Source: a virus
Direction: 5' to 3' (one strand)
DNA: 64,000 nt
IMG/VR virus record: IMGVR_UViG_3300010970_000136
Location: 5,836 to 69,835 of that record
The notes beneath the pieces are model-generated. The model had not been told where the DNA came from. It made no database searches and saw only the letters and a list, made by a program, of their open reading frames with translations. The position numbers and the translations under genes were made by a program. Shown here piece after piece: positions 1-25,817 of this stretch; position 1 is the first letter of the stretch, and every line of letters starts with the position of its first letter.

Positions 1-584
1 ACATCTAAGTCTAAAGCAGTTATGCTTGCAGAAACATTTTCAATTACAGTAGCCATTGCTTCATTTGCATTAGCTCTAGCAATTGATTCTGATGTAATTA
101 ATGCTGTAGCAGTTTGTATATCTGTAGTAAATGTTGCAGAAATAGTTTCAATTATACCAGCCACTGCTTCAAACTCATTAACTCTAGCAAATCTTTCTTC
201 ATTGATAAGTGCTTGAGATGAAAGATTATTGTCTGCAATCCTTTGTCCTTGTAAACCTATCTGTCCTTGTAAAAGACAAGAGTATTGTATAAGAGCTGCA
301 AGAACATCATTCAATACAAACTCTGTAGGAGCATTTTCGCTTCCAGGAGGATAATCTTGGCTTGCAGGAAGATACTCCTGCATTATAGAACATATACTTA
401 TACCAGAAAGATCTATTACAATACCTGTTCCAGTTCTTAAGTGATTAAATATTTTTTGTTCAACTACAGCTAAAGAGTCTCCTTTAACTATTCCAAGTTG
501 AGGAATATCTATTCCTGTATATTTTACACATTTATCTGATATTGTTTCAGCACAACCTTGATAGCAATTATCGCAATTAGACAT
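1..584 (-). CDS. Virion/tail-fibre-like protein, N-terminal part (runs off the window edge)
   Basis: Not in ORF track; ATG at 584 reads MSNCDNCYQGCAETISDKCVKYTGIDIPQLGIVKGDSL... open to position 1; Cys-rich N-terminus followed by an Ala/Thr-rich helical segment; lies in the structural operon. Confidence 0.6.
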   Translation of the reverse strand, partial: MSNCDNCYQGCAETISDKCVKYTGIDIPQLGIVKGDSLAVVEQKIFNHLRTGTGIVIDLSGISICSIMQEYLPASQDYPPGSENAPTEFVLNDVLAALIQYSCLLQGQIGLQGQRIADNNLSSQALINEERFARVNEFEAVAGIIETISATFTTDIQTATALITSESIARANANEAMATVIENVSASITALDLD

Positions 585-627
585 GTTGTTTTATTTTAAA
601 AAGTTTAATTTGTTGTTGTAGTAATAA

Positions 628-1197
628 TTAAGATGGACAATCACAAGTTGTAGAAATATTATTTCCATCAACTAATGTTGCCATATAATTAGGACCTGAT
701 AAACCTAACACATTGAATTTGTAAGTACCAGAACTAATCCAATCCCCAATACCTAAAACATTTAAGGATTTAATTACCACATTAGTACCAGTAATAGTGT
801 CGCAATTTGGACATTGATACTGATTAGCTACATAATAGAAATACGGAACTGTTGTAGTGGTTGTTGTAGTAGATGAACTTGACGTAGTAGTTGTTATTGG
901 ATCTATACAAGGTAGACAGTCTGGAAGTTTACATCCAGCAGTGATACGATTAACCTTACTAGCAATCATTGGTACCGTAAAGCATCCAGCATAATCTGGA
1001 TTACAATACTTAAATGTTAAGATTCTTCTATAGTTTAATAGATCAATAATTGCATTTCCTTGAACAGGTTGATTAAGCATGAATACAACATTGTTGTATA
1101 AATCATTAGCCATCTCTGCAAGTTTACAATCTATATGGTTTAATAAAACTGGTATAGTTGAACACTCAACACAATTTGTTAATCTAGGTGATAACAT
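628..1197 (-). CDS. Cys-rich structural-module protein with poly-Thr/Ser linker
   Basis: ORF 189 aa; TTTTSSSSTTTTTTT linker; structural operon. Confidence 0.6.
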   Translation of the reverse strand: MLSPRLTNCVECSTIPVLLNHIDCKLAEMANDLYNNVVFMLNQPVQGNAIIDLLNYRRILTFKYCNPDYAGCFTVPMIASKVNRITAGCKLPDCLPCIDPITTTTSSSSTTTTTTTVPYFYYVANQYQCPNCDTITGTNVVIKSLNVLGIGDWISSGTYKFNVLGLSGPNYMATLVDGNNISTTCDCPS

Positions 1198-1206
1198 AAT
1201 TTGATA

Positions 1207-1302
1207 TTATTTATTAGCTTTAGAAGCGCATGCTGCACATTGTCCATCTTTCAATTGACATCCACATCCCACATTAGCTCCGCATGAATTACAAGTTGCC
1301 AT
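1207..1302 (-). CDS. 31-aa Cys-rich mini-protein
   Basis: MATCNSCGANVGCGCQLKDGQCAACASKANK*; fills the gap between flanking genes exactly, start 1 nt after the upstream stop. Confidence 0.7.
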   Translation of the reverse strand: MATCNSCGANVGCGCQLKDGQCAACASKANK

Positions 1303-1303
1303 A

Positions 1304-1867
1304 TTAGTAAAAGTTTACTTGATAGTTGTTACCTGAACAACCACAATTGGTTTTTATAAAATTATTTAACATATTGTTTGCCTGAGTGTATAGCTTATTA
1401 GCTTCCACTTCAGCGCAGTTATTAGCTGCTGCTATTGCTCCTTGAATAAAGAAATAGACTGTATTAAGATCCACCTTAGCTTGTGTCTTAATAGCTCTGT
1501 CACATTCCATCATGTCAAGTTTCATAAAAGCTTCATCAAACTTCTCTTGTAGTTGATCTACACGAATAATTGTTTTCTCAACATAATTAACTGTTGCTGG
1601 TGCAATAGAATATCTCAAATGATATATTCCATCAGGCAATGGTTGATTTACACCCACTGCAGATATGCCTAAGTTTGATGATGTGAATATATTTAGTTCA
1701 CCAACATAAAAAGGTAGGCTTACCAATCCAAAGCCTGGTACATCTATATCTATAGTTGCACCTGAAACTAAAGGAGGGTCATCTGGATACACTGAAGCAT
1801 CCATTACCGCAAGGTTAAGAGTACTGTATGTTGGTACTACAATTATGTCTAGTTTTAAATCTGCCAT
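1304..1867 (-). CDS. Putative virion structural protein
   Basis: ORF 187 aa, beta-rich N-terminal half (LPDGIYHLRYSI); structural operon. Confidence 0.55.
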   Translation of the reverse strand: MADLKLDIIVVPTYSTLNLAVMDASVYPDDPPLVSGATIDIDVPGFGLVSLPFYVGELNIFTSSNLGISAVGVNQPLPDGIYHLRYSIAPATVNYVEKTIIRVDQLQEKFDEAFMKLDMMECDRAIKTQAKVDLNTVYFFIQGAIAAANNCAEVEANKLYTQANNMLNNFIKTNCGCSGNNYQVNFY

Positions 1868-1882
1868 GTTGTTATAAATAAA

Positions 1883-1923
1883 TATGCCAGAGGAATATGA
1901 GTTATCCTCTTTCCCCTGGCATA
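1883..1923 (-). terminator. Intergenic stem-loop (terminator or mRNA-stabilising hairpin)
   Basis: Minus strand TATGCCAGGGGAA...TTCCTCTGGCATA with a G-U pair, followed by TTTATTT. Confidence 0.55.
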
Positions 1924-1952
1924 GGTTATTATTAAAATCCTTTTACTAAATA

Positions 1953-3089
1953 TTAGTAGAAGTTAGTTGTTGTACTAGATGTTGTTTGGAAAAAACTAGT
2001 AGTAGTTGTAGTTGTAGAAGGAGCAGGGTTAGGAAGAACTCCTAAAGCAGCCTCTAATACAGTTTCAATTTCATTTCCAGCCATACTTCCAACAGGAACA
2101 GCAATGATTACAGTAGCATCTTCAGTGATATAATCACCCCATACGTAAGCACCTTTGTTGTACTCGTTAAATTTGATATAGAATGTATCATAAGCGATAC
2201 CAGCAGCTACATAAGACTCAAAGTTCTCATTGTAACCATTCATTCTATATAAATGCTTCAAGTAACCAGCTTGGTAGCTGTAGAAGTTTTTCTCCATTTG
2301 TGCAATCTCTGCAGACACACCTTTTGGATAAGAAGCTTCTTGAGTTACAACAGCCTCAGCAACAATGTTACAGTTGTCAGCAACAATGAAGTCAGCAGTT
2401 GTAGCAGGTCCAGCATATACGAAAGTACGGAAGTACATTCTGTCATATTCGTAAGGGAAAGCAGCTACATCACATGGTTGTCCATATGCAGTTAATGGTT
2501 TACCTGTAATACGTAAGATTGTTCCACCTACATTTTCGAATGTGTAGAATTTGCTTAATGAAATGTTGTCAGGGTTGATACCTGGAGCACCAGCTTCTAA
2601 TTTTGCAATTAAAGCATTGATTAACGCATTTACGTTAACACTAGCACATGGGTCACCACCACATTCTAAACATTCTGCAGCTACAGTTACTGAACGTGTA
2701 AATCCATTGAAATACAAAGTGTCTAAGTAGCTTGAGTGAGCACGTAAAGTCAAAGTGATATCTTCACCTGCTTGTACGTTAAAGTTTGATACATCTGTTA
2801 CTTGAACATTTGCTACAGTAGATCCTGATACTTTGTACCATTCAGTTACGTTAGAACCATTACTAGCAATTTTGTCAGATCTTTTAGATCCTTGCAAGTA
2901 AGTGTTAGCTCTACCTTGTGCAACGTAGAAATAAGGAGACATTGCAATAGTTCCTGCGTTAACAGTTGCATAGTTGCTGTTGAAGATACCTACTTGTCCT
3001 GCAGTAAGATCTTGTGTCGAACCAGAGCTAGGAAGAGAAGTCTGTCCTACTGGCACCACGAATAACGTGGTTAATGAAAAATCAGCCAT
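1953..3089 (-). CDS. Conserved crAss-like structural protein (auxiliary capsid/decoration-like) with Thr-rich tail
   Basis: 378 aa; third gene downstream of the major capsid gene as in the crAss-like capsid module; C-terminal STTTTTTSFFQTTSSTTT. Confidence 0.6.
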   Translation of the reverse strand: MADFSLTTLFVVPVGQTSLPSSGSTQDLTAGQVGIFNSNYATVNAGTIAMSPYFYVAQGRANTYLQGSKRSDKIASNGSNVTEWYKVSGSTVANVQVTDVSNFNVQAGEDITLTLRAHSSYLDTLYFNGFTRSVTVAAECLECGGDPCASVNVNALINALIAKLEAGAPGINPDNISLSKFYTFENVGGTILRITGKPLTAYGQPCDVAAFPYEYDRMYFRTFVYAGPATTADFIVADNCNIVAEAVVTQEASYPKGVSAEIAQMEKNFYSYQAGYLKHLYRMNGYNENFESYVAAGIAYDTFYIKFNEYNKGAYVWGDYITEDATVIIAVPVGSMAGNEIETVLEAALGVLPNPAPSTTTTTTSFFQTTSSTTTNFY

Positions 3090-3113
3090 TGTTTATTTAT
3101 TTAAATTAATAGT

Positions 3114-3845
3114 TTATTCGTTTGTTTGAATTCTATATGCTGCGTTTTGAACAGCAGATTGATTCTCTGTATACATTGCTAGGTTCTGTACTGTAAGATC
3201 TAATAACTCATCTTCTAGATACATCTCAAGTTCACAATCCTGATCAAAGGATGGTTCACCATCTAACATTACATATCCTGCTTTATTAATATATTGAGGA
3301 TATCGCATATACATTATTTGTATAGTTTTTGGAGTGAAGGTACCATCTGTAAAGACTGATACATCATCCGATGATATAAGATTGAATGTTTCTTGGTATT
3401 CAAAACTTGGTTTATAATGATCATTGTTTAAAATAAACTGTAGATCACCATGCTTTGCAAGATCTCTATTAATCCATATCTTTCTGTCTACACATCTTCC
3501 CTTATCAGCTAATATGTAACTATCTAAGTAGAACATATATTGTGGATCTAAATCATGTACATTAGCAGACCACTGGTTTAAATTAGCGTCCACTAGTGAA
3601 AGAACTAGGGGTTGATGGTTGTAGTTCATCACTAAGCTTTGTAGATCTTCGTAGCGCTTCTTAAAAGCGTCCATTCCCATTCCACTTACAATACTGATTC
3701 CATCTATCTTCTGCTTTATCAACTTAATCTGAGCCTCATTCAAAGCTAAGATTTTGTCTTCTAGTTGAATCTGTTGGTGCTCATTAGTTGATAGTTTATT
3801 TAGTTTCTGATCGATTTTGTATAATAAACTATCTACAGGTATCAT
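3114..3845 (-). CDS. crAss-like ring/head-tail connector protein
   Basis: 243 aa; LNEAQ N-terminal helix and Y.RYP/CEL C-terminal pattern; position in capsid module. Confidence 0.6.
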   Translation of the reverse strand: MIPVDSLLYKIDQKLNKLSTNEHQQIQLEDKILALNEAQIKLIKQKIDGISIVSGMGMDAFKKRYEDLQSLVMNYNHQPLVLSLVDANLNQWSANVHDLDPQYMFYLDSYILADKGRCVDRKIWINRDLAKHGDLQFILNNDHYKPSFEYQETFNLISSDDVSVFTDGTFTPKTIQIMYMRYPQYINKAGYVMLDGEPSFDQDCELEMYLEDELLDLTVQNLAMYTENQSAVQNAAYRIQTNE

Positions 3846-3873: not shown

Positions 3874-4842
3874 TTAAATAGCAGCTAGTTTTTTAGTTTT
3901 TAGTTTTCCTTCTAATACAAGTAACTCATCCTGATTATCATCATCAGCTAAGAACTTAACTAGATCTTCTTCATCTTTTGCAATTTCAAATTCACCTTCG
4001 TAAACTTTACCACTAGGCTTAACTCTATAAACTGAGTGTGCAATTGCTTGTTTAACTAAATCTTTAATATGTAGTAAATTTTCTTTCATGTCAGCAAATC
4101 TGTTGAACACTTCTATAGGATTCAATCCTTGGAAGTTACCAGTCTTGAATTCTGATTGTTTCAACATGTTATCTACTTGATTGTACACAATCTCTTCTCT
4201 CGTATCTTCTGTTACTGGAAGACCTAATAGTCTAGCAACTTTACGTTTTTTCTCGATTGTCATTGAATCAAATTTAACAACAGCTTTGTTGATCAATTGT
4301 TTCTTCTTAAAGATTACAGCACTTTCGATCTCATCATCTACAATGTAGAACTGAGTATCTGCTGGATAATCTCCTCTTTCCCAAGCTTGGAATGAAGAAG
4401 CAATTGTAGGATGTACTCTTAACCATGAAAAAGCAAGCTCTTGAAATGGAATTGTAAGATCGTAATAGTTATCACCATCTAACAACTTAACTGGTTGTAC
4501 GTGTGATTGATCTTCTGTAGATGTTGATAATCCATAGTTCCAAAACTTAGAACGTGGACCAAGATCAATGTCACCTAAATCAGCTTCAAGCTTAGCTCTT
4601 AGTGCAGTAACTCTTTCAATTTCTAACTCTCTTTCAGTTGGATCTGCAATTCGTCTGATGTAAGAAGCATCTGGATCTAATCCTGTTCTATACTTACCAT
4701 CTAATTCTTTGTAAGGATACTTAAAAACTCCTGTACCAGGTACTCTTGTTAATCCTTTCTGTGCCAACCCACTTTGCATTGTTTGCAATTGAGAAGTGGT
4801 ATACTCTCTTTTGATTGTAGAGATCTTTCCTAATTTACCCAT
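3874..4842 (-). CDS. Conserved crAss-like capsid-module protein
   Basis: 322 aa; first CDS downstream of the major capsid gene. Confidence 0.55.
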   Translation of the reverse strand: MGKLGKISTIKREYTTSQLQTMQSGLAQKGLTRVPGTGVFKYPYKELDGKYRTGLDPDASYIRRIADPTERELEIERVTALRAKLEADLGDIDLGPRSKFWNYGLSTSTEDQSHVQPVKLLDGDNYYDLTIPFQELAFSWLRVHPTIASSFQAWERGDYPADTQFYIVDDEIESAVIFKKKQLINKAVVKFDSMTIEKKRKVARLLGLPVTEDTREEIVYNQVDNMLKQSEFKTGNFQGLNPIEVFNRFADMKENLLHIKDLVKQAIAHSVYRVKPSGKVYEGEFEIAKDEEDLVKFLADDDNQDELLVLEGKLKTKKLAAI

Positions 4843-23664: not shown

Positions 23665-24246
23665 ATGAAAAAATTATTATCAGTATTATTAGTAACCGTA
23701 TTATTAATTTCTTGCAAAGAACCTCACACAGAAAATCAAACTGCTGTTCAAGAGCAAGCTCATACAGAAGGGAATCAAAGCAGATTAAATCAAAATCAAC
23801 CACTTCCTGATATTACTTGGAGTATGGAAAGAGATAACTTGATTAAGCTTAAGAAATTACAGAACGATAGAACTGTAACATTCTTTATGTATGTGTTTAT
23901 AGAAGGTATTTCTGAACCTATTGGATATTATCAAGTAAATAAAGTTAGTTCTGTAAACTCTCAACTGAGTAATCCTGAGCAAATAATTTCTGGAAATTCA
24001 CCAGGAAATAATTTACCTGCTGGAACAGCTGTTTCAATCCCTTCTCCAAGCGAAGATGGTAGTTATGGAACAAACGGAGATGCTATATTTGGATTTACTC
24101 CAGAAGACATATGTATTCAAACTAATATGAAATATATTACAGCTACTGTTCCTTTGAAATTCAAATCACCTGTTAATAAATTAGCAGTAATTGATACAGA
24201 CCAAGCAAAACAATTGCTTGATGCTTCTAAAAAAGCAATGAAATAA
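23665..24246 (+). CDS. Lipoprotein
   Basis: Signal peptide II MKKLLSVLLVTVLLIS-C. Confidence 0.75.
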   Translation: MKKLLSVLLVTVLLISCKEPHTENQTAVQEQAHTEGNQSRLNQNQPLPDITWSMERDNLIKLKKLQNDRTVTFFMYVFIEGISEPIGYYQVNKVSSVNSQLSNPEQIISGNSPGNNLPAGTAVSIPSPSEDGSYGTNGDAIFGFTPEDICIQTNMKYITATVPLKFKSPVNKLAVIDTDQAKQLLDASKKAMK

Positions 24247-24255
24247 CAAAAAATA

Positions 24256-24488
24256 GCTAAGCTGTGTAAAGCGTCAGAACTGATAATCTGTTAGAAGCTA
24301 TAGCCTAAACATTGATGCTTTGTAAATTATGAATAAGACGCTACCTTGAAATACAGGATTAGAAATGGATGTGTAGGGGTAATTCAGCGTGCGCTTTAAG
24401 TGACATATGGTCTTAATATTCCTCTAATAGTTTACATAAAGATACTATCAGTAATGGTAGATGTGTTGGAGCCTTGAGAAAGCTTAGT
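24256..24488 (+). ncRNA. Unassigned structured RNA A
   Basis: Terminal stem GCTAAGCT/AGCTTAGT followed by T7; GNRA-capped CTATCA-GTAA-TGGTAG; T-loop-like TGAAA/TGAGA loops; no ORF. Confidence 0.55.
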
Positions 24489-24519
24489 ATTTTTTTACGA
24501 CTTATATAATACCGCCACA

Positions 24520-24666
24520 ACACAAATGAGTTCTCAGCAAGTAGTTAGTGAATCCATGCTTATTGATGGTGCTAAGTGGTAATTCTTATTCCTACTAATT
24601 ACGTGACCCTACTCTTATTATGACCTCTATTGCTATAAGTTAAGATGTAATAAGAAAGGGTGCTAG
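24520..24666 (+). ncRNA. Unassigned structured RNA B
   Basis: GTAGTTAGT/ACTAATTAC and ACCCT..TCTTATTA/TAATAAGA..AGGGT stems in tandem. Confidence 0.45.
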
Positions 24667-24708
24667 ATTTAAAAAAGTAATTGATAAGTGTCCTCACATG
24701 AGGAAACT

Positions 24709-25031
24709 GGGGGTGACTGGTTTTGACAGGTTACCAGTAGTTAATACAATCAGCCAGAGAGATAACTGTAAACTAAGGTGAATTTAATTAATTGGCAATC
24801 AAACAACTCGTGTAGTGGCTCTAGGAGCAAACGCACAAATCGAAGCTAACATGAACAAAGTATTCTCTCTATTGGGAGAAGAAGTTGCTGTAGCAGCCTA
24901 AATTGAATAAGGATTTCTCTGTTAGATTAAACAGAGTGGTGGATCGTTAAGCCTAGCTTGACCCTAAATAAGCTGTATAAATTGTATTAATAAAAGTAGT
25001 TTGGACGTGGGTTCGACTCCCACCACCTCCA
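24709..25031 (+). ncRNA. ssrA: tmRNA
   Basis: 5' GGGGGTGACTGGTTTTGAC, 3' GACGTGGGTTCGACTCCCACCACCTCCA; G3:U70 Ala identity; internal tag ORF 24794-24901 ending VAVAA*. Confidence 0.93.
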
Positions 25032-25040
25032 CTGAATTCT

Positions 25041-25178
25041 GAATTTGCACATCATGTTCCTTACAAACCTTGTAATGTTGGCCGTTGTTATGCTTATACC
25101 ACGTGCAAATTCGTGTTATTTTAGAACTTAAATTGAGTGGTGAATAACAACATAGGTGACTGATAGGAAAGACTATCA
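25041..25178 (+). ncRNA. Unassigned structured RNA C (spacer between tmRNA and tRNA-like RNA)
   Basis: GAATTTGCAC/GTGCAAATTC stem, crossing GTTGTTAT/ATAACAAC pairing, TGATAG-GAAAGA-CTATCA hairpin. Confidence 0.4.
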
Positions 25179-25181
25179 AAT

Positions 25182-25292
25182 GATTGAGTGGCGGAATTGG
25201 TAGACGCTAAGAATAATAGTTCGTAACTCACATACAGCTCTGTAGAGAGTATTCTAGGTAACACCATACAGGTTCGAATCCTGTCTCAATCA
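25182..25292 (+). tRNA. tRNA-like RNA (Leu-type D arm) with expanded, non-canonical anticodon arm
   Basis: Acceptor GATTGAG/CTCAATC+A, D arm GCGGAATTGGTAGACGC, T arm ACAGG-TTCGAAT-CCTGT; AGAATA/TATTCT encloses about 34 nt. Confidence 0.75.
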
Positions 25293-25294
25293 CA

Positions 25295-25521
25295 GCAGTT
25301 GCTTGATGTCAAATATGTACAGCAACAGACATTGGAGAAATTTGGCTTCTCATGAATGTTAAGTCCTTTCCACACAGAGAAGGAGTTGAGTACTTACAGA
25401 AGGATGTATAGAGTTCCAATCTCAACATTGTGGTATTACATCCACATTAAACTTGTAATCTATGGTCTCTTTGGAAAGGGAACGCTTGTGAGTTGCAGTG
25501 AATATTAAACTCTCAAACTGT
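25295..25521 (+). ncRNA. Unassigned structured RNA D
   Basis: CCTTTCCA/TGGAAAGG, GTTGAG/CTCAAC, GTTGCT/AGCAAC stems; no ORF; ends before a terminator. Confidence 0.55.
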
Positions 25522-25548
25522 TTAGGGTAGCAATATGCTAAACTTTAT

Positions 25549-25580
25549 AAAGCCTCTGTAACAAGAGGCTTTTTTATTTT
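25549..25580 (+). terminator. Intrinsic terminator closing the RNA cluster
   Basis: AAAGCCTCT-GTAACA-AGAGGCTTT followed by T-tract. Confidence 0.8.
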
Positions 25581-25607
25581 GTATTAATCCTTAATAACTA
25601 TAAAAAC

Positions 25608-25754
25608 ATGAAAACAATTAAATTAGAACCAACAGAGTTCTATCACTTCAGAAAATTAGCATTTGCAATGAGTATTGCATTTGTATGTTCAATTACACAT
25701 GGTGTGTACATTGTAGAAGCCAATATAAATCAACTTGAACAGTTGGGTTATTAA
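25608..25754 (+). CDS. Small hypothetical protein (not in ORF track)
   Basis: MKTIKLEPTEFYHFRKLAF...LEQLGY*; preceded by CCTTAATAAC motif. Confidence 0.55.
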   Translation: MKTIKLEPTEFYHFRKLAFAMSIAFVCSITHGVYIVEANINQLEQLGY

Positions 25755-25817
25755 GGAGGGGAATGATGGGCTCTGTAACAGGAGCCCTTATTCTTTAATC
25801 ATTAAAACACATAAATT

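What the first reader, a model, noticed from the sequence alone, without database searches (positions are those of the whole stretch)
24250..25580. 1.3-kb RNA-only operon: tmRNA, anticodon-less tRNA-like RNA and four unassigned structured RNAs
In a genome otherwise packed with ORFs, this span has no credible CDS yet is tiled with helices: RNA A (24256-24488), RNA B (24520-24666), tmRNA, RNA C (25041-25178), tRNA-like RNA (25182-25292), RNA D (25295-25521), then a terminator. The two tRNA-shaped elements could be cut by RNase P and 3' trimming, releasing the others. Inference: an undescribed phage ncRNA system acting on translation or as decoys for host defence.
Basis: partly seen in the sequence, partly recalled or inferred. 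Interest (0 to 1): 0.8.

Follow-up and report, generated by a model that had tools for sequence, protein, structure and literature searches.

The report
Phage island of structured RNA genes
This gene-free 1.35-kb stretch of an uncultured crAss-like phage is a string of RNA genes: a ribosome-rescue tmRNA, a leucine-tRNA look-alike with no anticodon, and a roughly 360-base knotted RNA that recurs in about a hundred other phages, matches no catalogued RNA family and has no known job.

Summary

- **No coding sequence.** Window 24247-25607 has no credible CDS under table 11, table 4 or TAG=Q.
- **Known elements.** It holds a genuine tmRNA (24709-25034), a tRNA-shaped RNA (25182-25292) and one terminator (25549-25578).
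- **"RNA A" plus "RNA B" is one RNA.** It spans 24305-24666, behind a separate 49-nt mini-hairpin element (24253-24301). It has seven helices and a loop-to-junction pseudoknot. Its 18-31-nt core is nearly invariant.
- **That RNA is a phage family.** I found it in about 100 IMG/VR phage contigs. Covariation is strong: 96% of cells paired against 31-52% when partners are slid, and 19 of 23 pairs show compensatory change.
  - It occurs in 2 stretches among 185,579 prokaryote species genomes.
  - Phi14:2 is the only one of 50,697 deposited phage records that has it.
  - It matches no Rfam 15 family.
  - A phi14:2 paper reports two highly transcribed, stable "long non-coding RNAs" of unknown function. 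They are probably this RNA and the tmRNA.
- **The tRNA-like RNA belongs to a larger family.** At least 139 complete elements share a Leu-type scaffold with A73. Their middle parts are hypervariable, 54-182 nt overall.
- **"RNA D" is two modules.** They occur separately in other phages.
- **"RNA C" has no support.**

Function is untested. The same scan flagged look-alike stretches in 46 other genomes.

The parts
24253..24301 (+). Leader element 'elem0'. It is a 49-nt Y-shaped mini RNA: closing stem ATAGCT/AGCTAT and an inner hairpin CAGA-ACTGATAA-TCTG.
   Evidence: It is 85-96% identical in 5 of 88 related loci, always just upstream of the large RNA. In Flavobacterium elemo phages it sits directly in front of a tRNA-Ala, behind a TATATTTG box. 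Read by eye, the inner stem changes CAGA/TCTG to TCAA/TTGA. MFE z-score is -0.7.
24305..24666 (+).
- 5' block CTAAACATTGA... at 24305-24327
- P1 24318-24326 / 24431-24441
- P2 24445-24450 / 24455-24460 with a GUAA loop
- P3 24462-24468 / 24518-24524
- P4 24469-24472 / 24482-24485 with loop CUUGAGAAA
- pseudoknot 24475-24480 / 24531-24536
- nearly invariant core 24517-24547
- P5 24541-24547 / 24596-24602
- P6 24606-24610 / 24657-24661
- P7 24613-24618 / 24650-24655
   Evidence: - The 31-mer core is exact in 42 IMG/VR stretches. A 3'-domain 17-mer occurs in 79 stretches.
- The covariance model of the 5' domain scores 112.8 bits on the window and gives 104 matches in 100 sources.
- Pair counts support the helices.
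- The 5' block is present in 68 of 82 copies that have enough upstream sequence.
- There is no Rfam match at E<=10.
24669..24708 (+). Conserved 40-nt spacer in front of the tmRNA, with a small hairpin CCTC-ACAT-GAGG.
   Evidence: GATAAGTG(Y)CCTCACATGAGG is also seen directly 5' of the tmRNA in L009, L029, L041 and L043, in the alignment printed. Not analysed further.
24709..25034 (+). tmRNA, with tag ANAQIEANMNKVFSLLGEEVAVAA*.
   Evidence: ARAGORN. Rfam RF00023 scores 87.2 bits, E 1.9e-32, full length 1-374. The acceptor stem carries G3-U70, read.
25035..25181 (+). 'RNA C', a spacer of unproven status.
   Evidence: No homologue in 88 loci except one 22-nt match to its last hairpin. MFE z is -1.2 on the plus strand and -1.6 on the minus strand. 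A relative with the same gene order (L098) has only about 15 nt here.
25182..25292 (+). tRNA-Leu-like scaffold RNA.
- 7-bp acceptor stem GATTGAG/CTCAATC, with A73
- Leu-type D arm
- T arm ACAGG-TTCGAAT-CCTGT
- short variable stem GGT-AAC-ACC
- a 6-bp stem AGAATA/TATTCT around a 34-nt loop where the anticodon loop should be
   Evidence: Rfam tRNA 37.4 bits with a 43-nt insert; no ARAGORN call.
25293..25427 (+). Module D1.
   Evidence: 78-83% identical in 5 of 88 loci, each time following the tmRNA or tRNA-like RNA. Compensatory change CCTTT/AAGGA to CCTAT/ATAGG was seen by eye. MFE z is -0.2.
25428..25520 (+). Module D2: a hairpin and pseudoknot (GTGG/CCAC with ATTACA/TGTAAT), then two hairpins.
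   Evidence: Found in 6 of 88 loci, there upstream of the large RNA. Pair count on 7 sequences: 89.0% paired against 33-53% when slid, with 3 pairs changed on both sides.
25521..25578 (+). Terminal hairpin (25521-25545) and intrinsic terminator (stem 25549-25572 plus T run).
   Evidence: Terminator scan: 9-bp stem, loop of 6, tail TTTATTTTGT. Terminator-type Rfam partial hits lie here only.

Best explanation
The span is the RNA-gene island of the rightward (replication/early) gene block of a crAss-like phage that probably infects Bacteroidota.

It is most likely read as one transcript, continuing from the upstream genes and ending at the terminator at 25549-25578. Host tRNA-processing enzymes (RNase P at 5' ends, RNase Z or trimming at 3' ends) would then cut it at the two tRNA-shaped bodies, the tmRNA and the Leu-type scaffold RNA. 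The products would be several stable RNAs:
- elem0
- the ~360-nt pseudoknotted 'AB RNA'
- the tmRNA
- the tRNA-like RNA
- modules D1 and D2

The AB RNA is a free-standing, trans-acting structured RNA of a phage-restricted family. Its core is almost invariant, its helices covary and its peripheral inserts are freely variable. That is the pattern of an RNA whose core contacts a conserved partner (a protein, the ribosome or a tRNA) or is catalytic.

The tRNA-like RNA keeps exactly the parts of a tRNA-Leu that processing enzymes, the CCA-adding enzyme and LeuRS read. These are the acceptor stem, A73 and the D/T elbow. It has lost the decoding part.

Shown: the genes, their structures, their conservation and their modular order. 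Inferred: co-transcription, processing, stability and any effect on the host.
For: RNA genes rather than CDS:
-.

AB RNA structure:
- On 20 whole-length sequences, 93.1% of cells pair against 37-51% with slid partners. 14 of 41 pairs change on both sides, and 0 of 500 shuffles reach this.
- On 104 model-aligned 5' domains (97 distinct), 96.0% pair against 31-52%. 19 of 23 pairs change on both sides in 333 cells, 0 of 500 shuffles reach this, and all 7 pairs of P3 covary.
- In P5 only wobble-preserving changes occur opposite the invariant strand, which fixes the RNA to the plus strand.

Free-standing and phage-restricted:
- No adjacent plus-strand ORF in 26 of the 42 loci where the script found the RNA's 3' end; the downstream ORFs in the other 16 were not compared.
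- No protein family consistently near it. The largest cluster is in 12 of 44 loci at scattered offsets.
- 2 stretches in 185,579 species genomes, against 42 and 79 stretches in IMG/VR.
- No hit in control loci L001 and L003.

Co-orientation:
- 101 ARAGORN tRNA/tmRNA genes lie on the same strand as the AB RNA and 14 on the opposite strand, in 88 loci.
- A tmRNA homologue lies 160-330 nt behind the core in most of the 17 of 88 loci that have one.

Punctuation:
- D1 abuts discriminator A plus CAG of either the tRNA-like RNA or the tmRNA.

Expression in a relative:
- The phi14:2 paper states that two long intergenic regions are transcribed rightward above most protein genes, from the earliest time point, without later decline, with function undetermined (bioRxiv 10.1101/2020.03.07.982082, section 4 read).
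- The AB RNA and tmRNA homologues of phi14:2 lie in two long gaps covered only by tiny ORFs in the GenBank annotation.
Against: - No read-level evidence for transcription, ends or processing of the window's RNAs. No RNA run was listed for phi14:2 (told under Tried and rejected).
- The mapping of the paper's 'g004-g005' and 'g005-g006' junctions to the AB RNA and tmRNA rests on gene order only. The numbering table is a supplement I could not open.
- Single-sequence folding energies are not better than shuffles.
- No promoter-like TAnnTTTG box lies within 160 nt upstream of 24250, so the start of the transcript is unknown.
- RNA C has no comparative support.
- The A5 alignment was fitted to the model's structure, which inflates pairing. 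The MAFFT-based A2 count is the independent one.
- The loci were fished with exact conserved words, so the 'invariance' of those words is partly by selection. The 17-mer scan still showed GTTCTCAGCAAGTAGTTA unchanged in most of 58 new loci while P3 varied.
Confidence: 0.6

Rival explanations
1. The tRNA-like scaffold RNA is a substrate of host LeuRS. A leucylated but non-decoding tRNA body would then do one of three things: titrate LeuRS or EF-Tu, donate leucine to a non-ribosomal transferase, or feed false signals to tRNA-charging sensors. The variable middle would be irrelevant filler.
For: What is conserved is the set that, by established knowledge of bacterial tRNA-Leu identity (recalled, not tested here), LeuRS reads:
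- Discriminator A in 22 of 23 family members.
- A Leu-type D arm and the elbow.
- 77% mean pairwise identity in the first 16 nt and 84% in the last 25 nt.

The middle ranges from 23 to 126 nt with no similarity. The window and L098 share an identical 111-nt frame with unrelated middles.
Against: - No aminoacylation data.
- Some members carry 20-30-nt inserts in the D loop (L006, L022, L037), which may disturb the elbow.
- Common descent from one tRNA-Leu explains A73 and the D arm without selection for charging.
- No phage-encoded transferase was seen among the 20 window proteins scanned.
Confidence: 0.15
2. The tRNA-shaped RNAs and mini-hairpins are decoys or sponges for host tRNA-directed defence nucleases or tRNA-binding sensors. 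The AB RNA is an RNA inhibitor of another host defence or host factor.
For: - The scaffold family is very widespread and multi-copy.
- Middles are hypervariable on a fixed frame, as expected under an arms race.
- Tandem second copies of the AB RNA occur in several contigs (L067, L077, L099, L049, L050, L052, L072, L074, L090, L102).
- The phi14:2 RNAs are reported present from the earliest time point.
Against: - Anticodon nucleases read anticodon loops, and most members lack one. ARAGORN finds a tRNA in only 30 of 140, with scattered anticodons.
- No defence or anti-defence gene is linked.
- An almost invariant core does not look like a fast arms-race surface.
Confidence: 0.12
3. The AB RNA is a cis-acting leader, such as a riboswitch or processing/antitermination element, for whatever lies downstream, here the tmRNA.
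For: In 16 of the 42 loci where the script found the RNA's 3' end, a plus-strand ORF starts 15-192 nt behind the 3' block GGGTGCTAA. In 17 of 88 loci a tmRNA follows.
Against: - The downstream element differs from locus to locus: tmRNA, tRNA-like RNA, ORFs of varied length (50-372 aa) whose similarity was not compared, or nothing for 200 nt or more in 26 of 42.
- No expression platform or terminator follows the 3' block in the window.
- The phi14:2 paper describes abundant stable RNAs, not leaders.
Confidence: 0.05
4. The conserved sequences act as DNA (attachment, packaging or replication sites, or mobile repeats), or the core encodes a short peptide (ATG AGT TCT CAG CAA GTA GTT...).
For: - The 31-mer contains an ATG, and the frame stays open for 15-26 codons in the window, L013, L024 and L046 (my reading of the sequences printed).
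- The scaffold's 3' end resembles the tRNA 3' halves used as phage attachment sites (recalled knowledge).
Against: - Changes opposite the invariant strand are only those that keep G-U pairs on the plus strand.
- 19 of 23 pairs covary.
- The core shows no third-position variation, yet the ATG is replaced by ACG, ATA, TTG or nothing in L058, L094, L049, L056 and L070. Single-base indels shift the frame in L076 and L084, and 30-odd-nt inserts split it in L060 and L105.
- Complete 5' and 3' acceptor strands are present, not only 3' halves.
- It is almost absent from bacterial genomes.
Confidence: 0.03

Closest known systems
The two 'long non-coding RNAs' of Cellulophaga phage phi14:2 (Drobysheva et al., bioRxiv 10.1101/2020.03.07.982082; section 4 and found passages read)
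   Same: Phi14:2 carries a homologue of the AB RNA. The model scores 96.3 bits at L002 2486-2597, and the whole RNA is about KC821624 2915-3359. It also carries a tmRNA at about 4031-4500. Both lie in the rightward early block. The paper reports two long intergenic regions that are highly and stably transcribed rightward, with function unknown.
   Different: The paper gives no sequence family, structure or distribution, and does not call either RNA a tmRNA in the text I read. Phi14:2 lacks elem0, the tRNA-like RNA, D1 and D2 at this place. The identity of 'g004-g005/g005-g006' with these RNAs is my inference.
Stable RNAs of phage tRNA regions: T4 RNAC and RNAD
   Same: These are small phage RNAs of unknown role transcribed from a tRNA gene region. 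[quoted passage not shown] That they are released by tRNA processing is recalled, not checked.
   Different: The T4 RNAs are not known as a family spread over a hundred unrelated phages. The host phylum differs.
GOLLD and ROOL large ornate RNAs (Rfam)
   Same: They are large, intricately folded RNAs of unknown function that often sit beside tRNA genes in phages and prophages (recalled).
   Different: No match to either model, or to any of the 4227 Rfam 15 families, over the AB RNA. This holds at E<=10 in the window and at E<=0.1 in 20 further loci totalling 57,265 bases. The AB RNA is also smaller, about 180-440 nt.
tmRNA (RF00023), including phage-borne copies
   Same: The window's tmRNA is a full member. 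Related copies are annotated or detectable in Cellulophaga phages Calle_1 and phi38:1, and the window's tmRNA 5' part matches FpV4-like Flavobacterium phages.
   Different: Nothing unusual, apart from its place in an RNA-only array directly behind the AB RNA.
Bacterial Y RNA-like YrlA, and engineered 'tRNA scaffold' RNAs
   Same: In both, a tRNA-like body (acceptor, D and T arms) is joined to a non-tRNA module in place of the anticodon arm. For YrlA I saw only the search listing and abstract of PMC4201824. The engineered scaffold is recalled.
   Different: In YrlA the RNA ends lie at the far end of the other module (recalled). Here the ends form the acceptor stem as in a real tRNA. No Rfam Y-RNA match. 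No Ro60/Rsr or RtcB gene among the 20 window proteins scanned.

Membership tests
tmRNA (RF00023) | Full-length match above the curated score. | tested here: met
   87.2 bits against gathering 47, model positions 1-374.
tmRNA (RF00023) | tRNA-like domain with a G3-U70 acceptor pair and a T arm, and an internal tag reading frame ending in a stop. | tested here: met
   The acceptor GGGGGTG / CACCTCC gives G3-U70, read. The T arm is GGGTTCGACTCCC. ARAGORN gives the tag ANAQIEANMNKVFSLLGEEVAVAA*.
tRNA (RF00005), decoding tRNA | 7-bp acceptor stem, D arm, T arm with T loop, and discriminator base. | tested here: met
   GATTGAG/CTCAATC, GCGG..ACGC, ACAGG-TTCGAAT-CCTGT and A73. 37.4 bits against gathering 29.
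tRNA (RF00005), decoding tRNA | Anticodon arm: a 5-bp stem with a 7-nt loop, U33 and an anticodon. | tested here: not met
   The model spans 43 nt where 17 are expected. The sequence gives a 6-bp stem around a 34-nt loop. ARAGORN makes no call. In the wider family ARAGORN of 140, with scattered or 2- and 4-letter anticodons.
tRNA-Leu (aminoacylation identity) | Charged by LeuRS. | not testable with these tools
   Only A73 (22 of 23) and the Leu-type D arm are seen.
Any Rfam 15 family, for the AB RNA, elem0, C, D1 and D2 | Covariance-model match. | tested here: not met
   Nothing reaches a gathering score. The sub-threshold rows are terminator-type hits at 25493-25617 and chance rows. In 20 more loci only tRNA and tmRNA families match, plus one antisense-to-tRNA row.
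Riboswitch or cis-regulatory leader | Constant position upstream of one gene family, with an expression platform. | tested here: not met
   What lies downstream differs from locus to locus or is absent (26 of 42 loci have no adjacent ORF; the ORFs in the other 16 were not compared). No terminator follows the 3' block.
T4 RNAC/RNAD-type stable RNAs | Sequence or structure similarity to RNAC or RNAD. | not tested
   No T4 RNAC or RNAD sequence was fetched. The comparison is by kind only.

The most novel reading that the evidence does not exclude
Two undescribed RNA classes are at work.

1. The AB RNA could be a new ribozyme, or a ribosome- or tRNA-binding RNA, that Bacteroidota phages of many lineages express at high level from the first minutes of infection to reprogram host translation or tRNA metabolism. 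This would explain why it sits beside phage tmRNAs.
2. The Leu-type bodies could be a natural 'tRNA scaffold' system. It would display hypervariable RNA cassettes as guides, aptamers or decoys. Alternatively it would deliver leucine without decoding.
Probability: 0.2. Interest if true: 0.9.

Novelty: new variant of a known kind. Interest (0 to 1): 0.72.

Why it matters
Phage genomes are annotated almost only for proteins. In the phi14:2 GenBank record these RNAs are covered by seven spurious 33-42-aa ORFs.

This span shows a large, strongly covarying RNA family with an almost invariant core, present in about a hundred uncultured phages. One culturable crAss-like model phage also has it, and there a published transcriptome already points to very high, stable expression. 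That makes a new structured RNA class directly testable by deletion, pull-down, probing and cryo-EM.

The companion family of anticodon-less Leu-type tRNA bodies has at least 139 complete copies and often occurs in arrays. It raises a separate question: what does a tRNA do when only its acceptor, elbow and discriminator are kept? The answer bears on tRNA processing, aminoacylation and phage-host conflict.

Tried and rejected
1. **Known RNA family.** Rfam 15 was run at gathering scores on the whole window, at E<=10 on 24000-25800 and at E<=0.1 on 20 related loci. Only tmRNA and tRNA matched.
2. **Hidden CDS or recoding.** Tables 11 and 4 and TAG=Q give nothing above 85 aa.
3. **Peptide in the core.** Rejected; see the fourth rival.
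4. **Riboswitch or leader.** Rejected on the varying or absent downstream element and on neighbour clustering.
5. **Host-derived sequence or attachment site.** The 21-mer core occurs in only 2 stretches of the genome collection, both MAG contigs.
6. **Folding energy as evidence.** z-scores are not significant.
7. **RNA ligase link.** Other first readers suggested it. None turned up among the 20 window proteins scanned with Pfam, and the protein clusters near the RNA were not scanned against Pfam.
8. **Obligate link between the AB RNA and the tRNA-like scaffold.** Only 7 model matches (4 of them strong) in 100 scaffold-selected loci of 886,542 bases.
9. **Expression.** The look-up of sequencing runs on the phi14:2 copy (L032:1650-3450, kind rna) listed no RNA holder. 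None was listed, which is no evidence either way.
10. **Whole-RNA covariance model.** The 3' domain (P5-P7) rests on the 20-sequence MAFFT alignment only.
11. **Literature.** Seven answered searches found no description of this RNA family or of the Leu-type scaffold family. Fremin et al. 2023 (PMC10690425; found passages read) list 10,006 candidate structured RNAs from IMG/VR, including tRNA-like ones. Their tables are supplements I could not see, and they may contain these RNAs.
12. **Promoter.** No TAnnTTTG box lies just upstream. The sigma-70 scan gave no more sites than shuffles: 11 against 12.5.
Full report
**What the window is.** It is 64,000 bases of a 69,835-base IMG/VR virus record that CheckV rates 61% complete.
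- Its minus-strand block encodes a portal protein. The best relatives in 50,697 phage records are crAss-like phages, at about 26% identity over 90-96% of the protein.
- Its plus-strand block encodes MoxR/vWA proteins, a metallophosphatase, DnaB- and SF2-type helicases, a primase and RecA.
- The flagged span therefore lies in the rightward replication block. This is the layout described for the crAss-like Cellulophaga phage phi14:2.

**Checking the observation.** Between CDS 23665-24246 and CDS 25608-25754 there are only ORFs of 32-71 aa, four of six on the minus strand. Reading TGA as Trp or TAG as Gln opens nothing longer than 85 aa.
- ARAGORN and Rfam agree on a full-length tmRNA at 24709-25034.
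- With permissive filters Rfam's tRNA model matches 25182-25292 at 37.4 bits, above its gathering score of 29. It has to skip 43 nt where the anticodon arm belongs, and ARAGORN does not call it.
- One intrinsic terminator closes the span.
- G+C rises from about 0.29-0.33 to 0.34-0.40.
- The claim that the span is 'tiled with helices' is not supported by energy alone. z-scores against dinucleotide shuffles are -0.2 to -1.6, and the reverse strands are no worse.

**RNA A and RNA B are one RNA.** Phi14:2 has a colinear homologue.
- A 31-mer at window 24517-24547 occurs letter-perfect in 42 IMG/VR stretches, from contigs of 10-306 kb.
- Alignment shows conserved blocks separated by three freely variable inserts.
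- The blocks pair as follows:
  - P2, capped by a GNRA-type loop (GUAA, GUGA or GAAA)
  - P4, with loop CUUGAGAAA
  - P5, P6 and P7
  - UGAGAA of the P4 loop can pair with UUCUCA of the core, forming a pseudoknot
- On a plain MAFFT alignment of 20 whole RNAs, 93.1% of cells pair against 37-51% when the partners are slid. 14 of 41 pairs change on both sides, and 0 of 500 shuffles reach this. P5 shows only G-C to G-U or U-A to U-G changes opposite the invariant strand.

**A wider set of copies.** A second scan with a 3'-domain word returned 79 stretches, 58 of them new loci. In these P3 is rewritten (for example ACGTGAG/CTCACGT, AATGG/CCATT, CATAG/CTATG), while GTTCTCAGCAAGTAGTTA stays fixed in most.
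- A covariance model of the 5' domain (113 positions) found 104 matches at E<=0.001 in 100 sources of 932,562 bases. There were none in the two control loci without the RNA, and second copies in ten contigs.
- On that alignment, which is fitted to the model, 96.0% of cells pair against 31-52% when slid. 19 of 23 pairs covary, including all seven of P3.
- The pseudoknot is 98% paired but has only three cells changed on both sides.

**The 5' end of the RNA.** A 5' block (C/T)TAAACATTGA...CCTTTGTAAAT is present in 68 of 82 copies with enough upstream sequence. Its second half pairs with ATTTACATAAAG in front of P2 (helix P1), with compensatory variants seen by eye. In the window the RNA therefore runs from 24305 to 24666.

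**What the AB RNA is not.**
- It matches no Rfam 15 family.
- It is not a leader: no ORF follows in 26 of the 42 loci examined, and the downstream ORFs in the rest were not compared. No protein family is consistently near it.
- It is not host-derived: 2 stretches in one genome each of 185,579 species, both MAG contigs.
- Among deposited phage records only phi14:2 has it.
- A peptide reading of the core fails, because the ATG is lost, the frame is shifted, or the frame is split by inserts in several members.

[quoted passage not shown] The AB RNA and tmRNA homologues occupy two long gaps of that region, which GenBank fills with 33-42-aa ORFs on both strands. I take these to be the two RNAs, but I could not see the numbering table.

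**The tRNA-like RNA.** Its acceptor stem, Leu-type D arm, T arm, short variable stem and A73 are intact. In place of the anticodon loop a 6-bp stem encloses 34 nt.
- In the AB-RNA loci I found 23 bodies with the same T arm, in 18 of 89 loci counting the window. They are 74-183 nt long. 22 have discriminator A, and 16 have acceptor stem AGTCAGG or GATTGAG.
- Locus L098 has the window's order (tmRNA, a 111-nt GATTGAG body, D1) with an unrelated middle.
- Of 164 elements, 139 have both acceptor strands. They are 54-182 nt long (median 102), and 93 exceed 90 nt.
- ARAGORN of 140, with scattered anticodons. One locus holds six copies in 3.4 kb.
- The family is wider than the AB RNA: only 7 model matches in 100 scaffold-selected loci.

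**The other modules.**
- elem0 (24253-24301) recurs in 5 of 88 loci in front of the AB RNA. In Flavobacterium elemo phages it lies in front of a tRNA-Ala.
- D1 recurs in 5 of 88 loci, always after a tmRNA or tRNA-like 3' end and, in relatives, before a terminator.
- D2 recurs in 6 of 88 loci, there upstream of the AB RNA. Pair support is modest.
- RNA C has no support.

All tRNA-type genes near the AB RNA are strongly co-oriented, 101 against 14.

**Reading.** The span is a modular RNA-gene island, most likely cut from a longer transcript at its tRNA-shaped bodies. The kind is old: T4's RNAC and RNAD are still of unknown role (passage in PMC3014915), and GOLLD and ROOL are comparable by recall. 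The AB RNA and the Leu-type scaffold family are not in Rfam 15. I did not find them in print with seven searches. The supplement tables of PMC10690425, which I could not open, may list them.

Other first readers of this scan flagged look-alike stretches in 59 windows of 46 genomes. None of those was followed up.

Noticed in passing
L126 (IMG/VR contig of 62,369 bases), about 280-3380: Six exact copies of the AGTCAGG-type scaffold 3' end lie within 3.4 kb. The five complete bodies printed are 85-116 nt long with unrelated middles, forming an array of anticodon-less tRNA-Leu bodies.
   Followed up: partly
L067, L077, L099 (two copies about 350 nt apart); L049, L050, L052, L072, L074, L090, L102: These contigs carry two diverged copies of the AB RNA 5' domain. 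One is often of a second subtype with P3 AATGG/CCATT or CATAG/CTATG and a P4 loop that contains TGAGAT.
   Followed up: partly
window 24669-24708; also L009, L029, L041, L043: A conserved spacer, GATAAGTG(Y)CCTCACATGAGG, lies immediately 5' of the phage tmRNA. It could be a processing or promoter element.
   Followed up: no
L002 = KC821624 3106-3431 and 3912-4519: The GenBank record of phi14:2 annotates seven hypothetical proteins of 33-42 aa on both strands, over the AB RNA and the tmRNA. RefSeq has removed features there.
   Followed up: partly
P5 insert of the AB RNA in L009, L029, L031, L033 (alignment): The variable insert enclosed by P5 often contains a T-arm-like hairpin (for example GTGG-TTCAAAT-CCAC). 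The window's insert does not.
   Followed up: no
L036, offset +99 from the core; window 24275-24290: A 66-nt compact tRNA-like gene in L036 carries the same loop word ACTGATAA as the inner hairpin of elem0. This hints that elem0 derives from a tRNA-Ile(GAU)-type anticodon arm.
   Followed up: no
L047 (100,089-base contig) and L048: The only two genome-collection hits for the AB RNA core are MAG contigs labelled Clostridium sp. Both score 70-80 bits with the model. They look like phage contigs binned into MAGs, but this was not checked.
   Followed up: no
window 24490-24496: A T7 run behind the P4 hairpin lies inside the AB RNA, in a variable insert. Homologues lack it, and the terminator scan does not call it.
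   Followed up: yes
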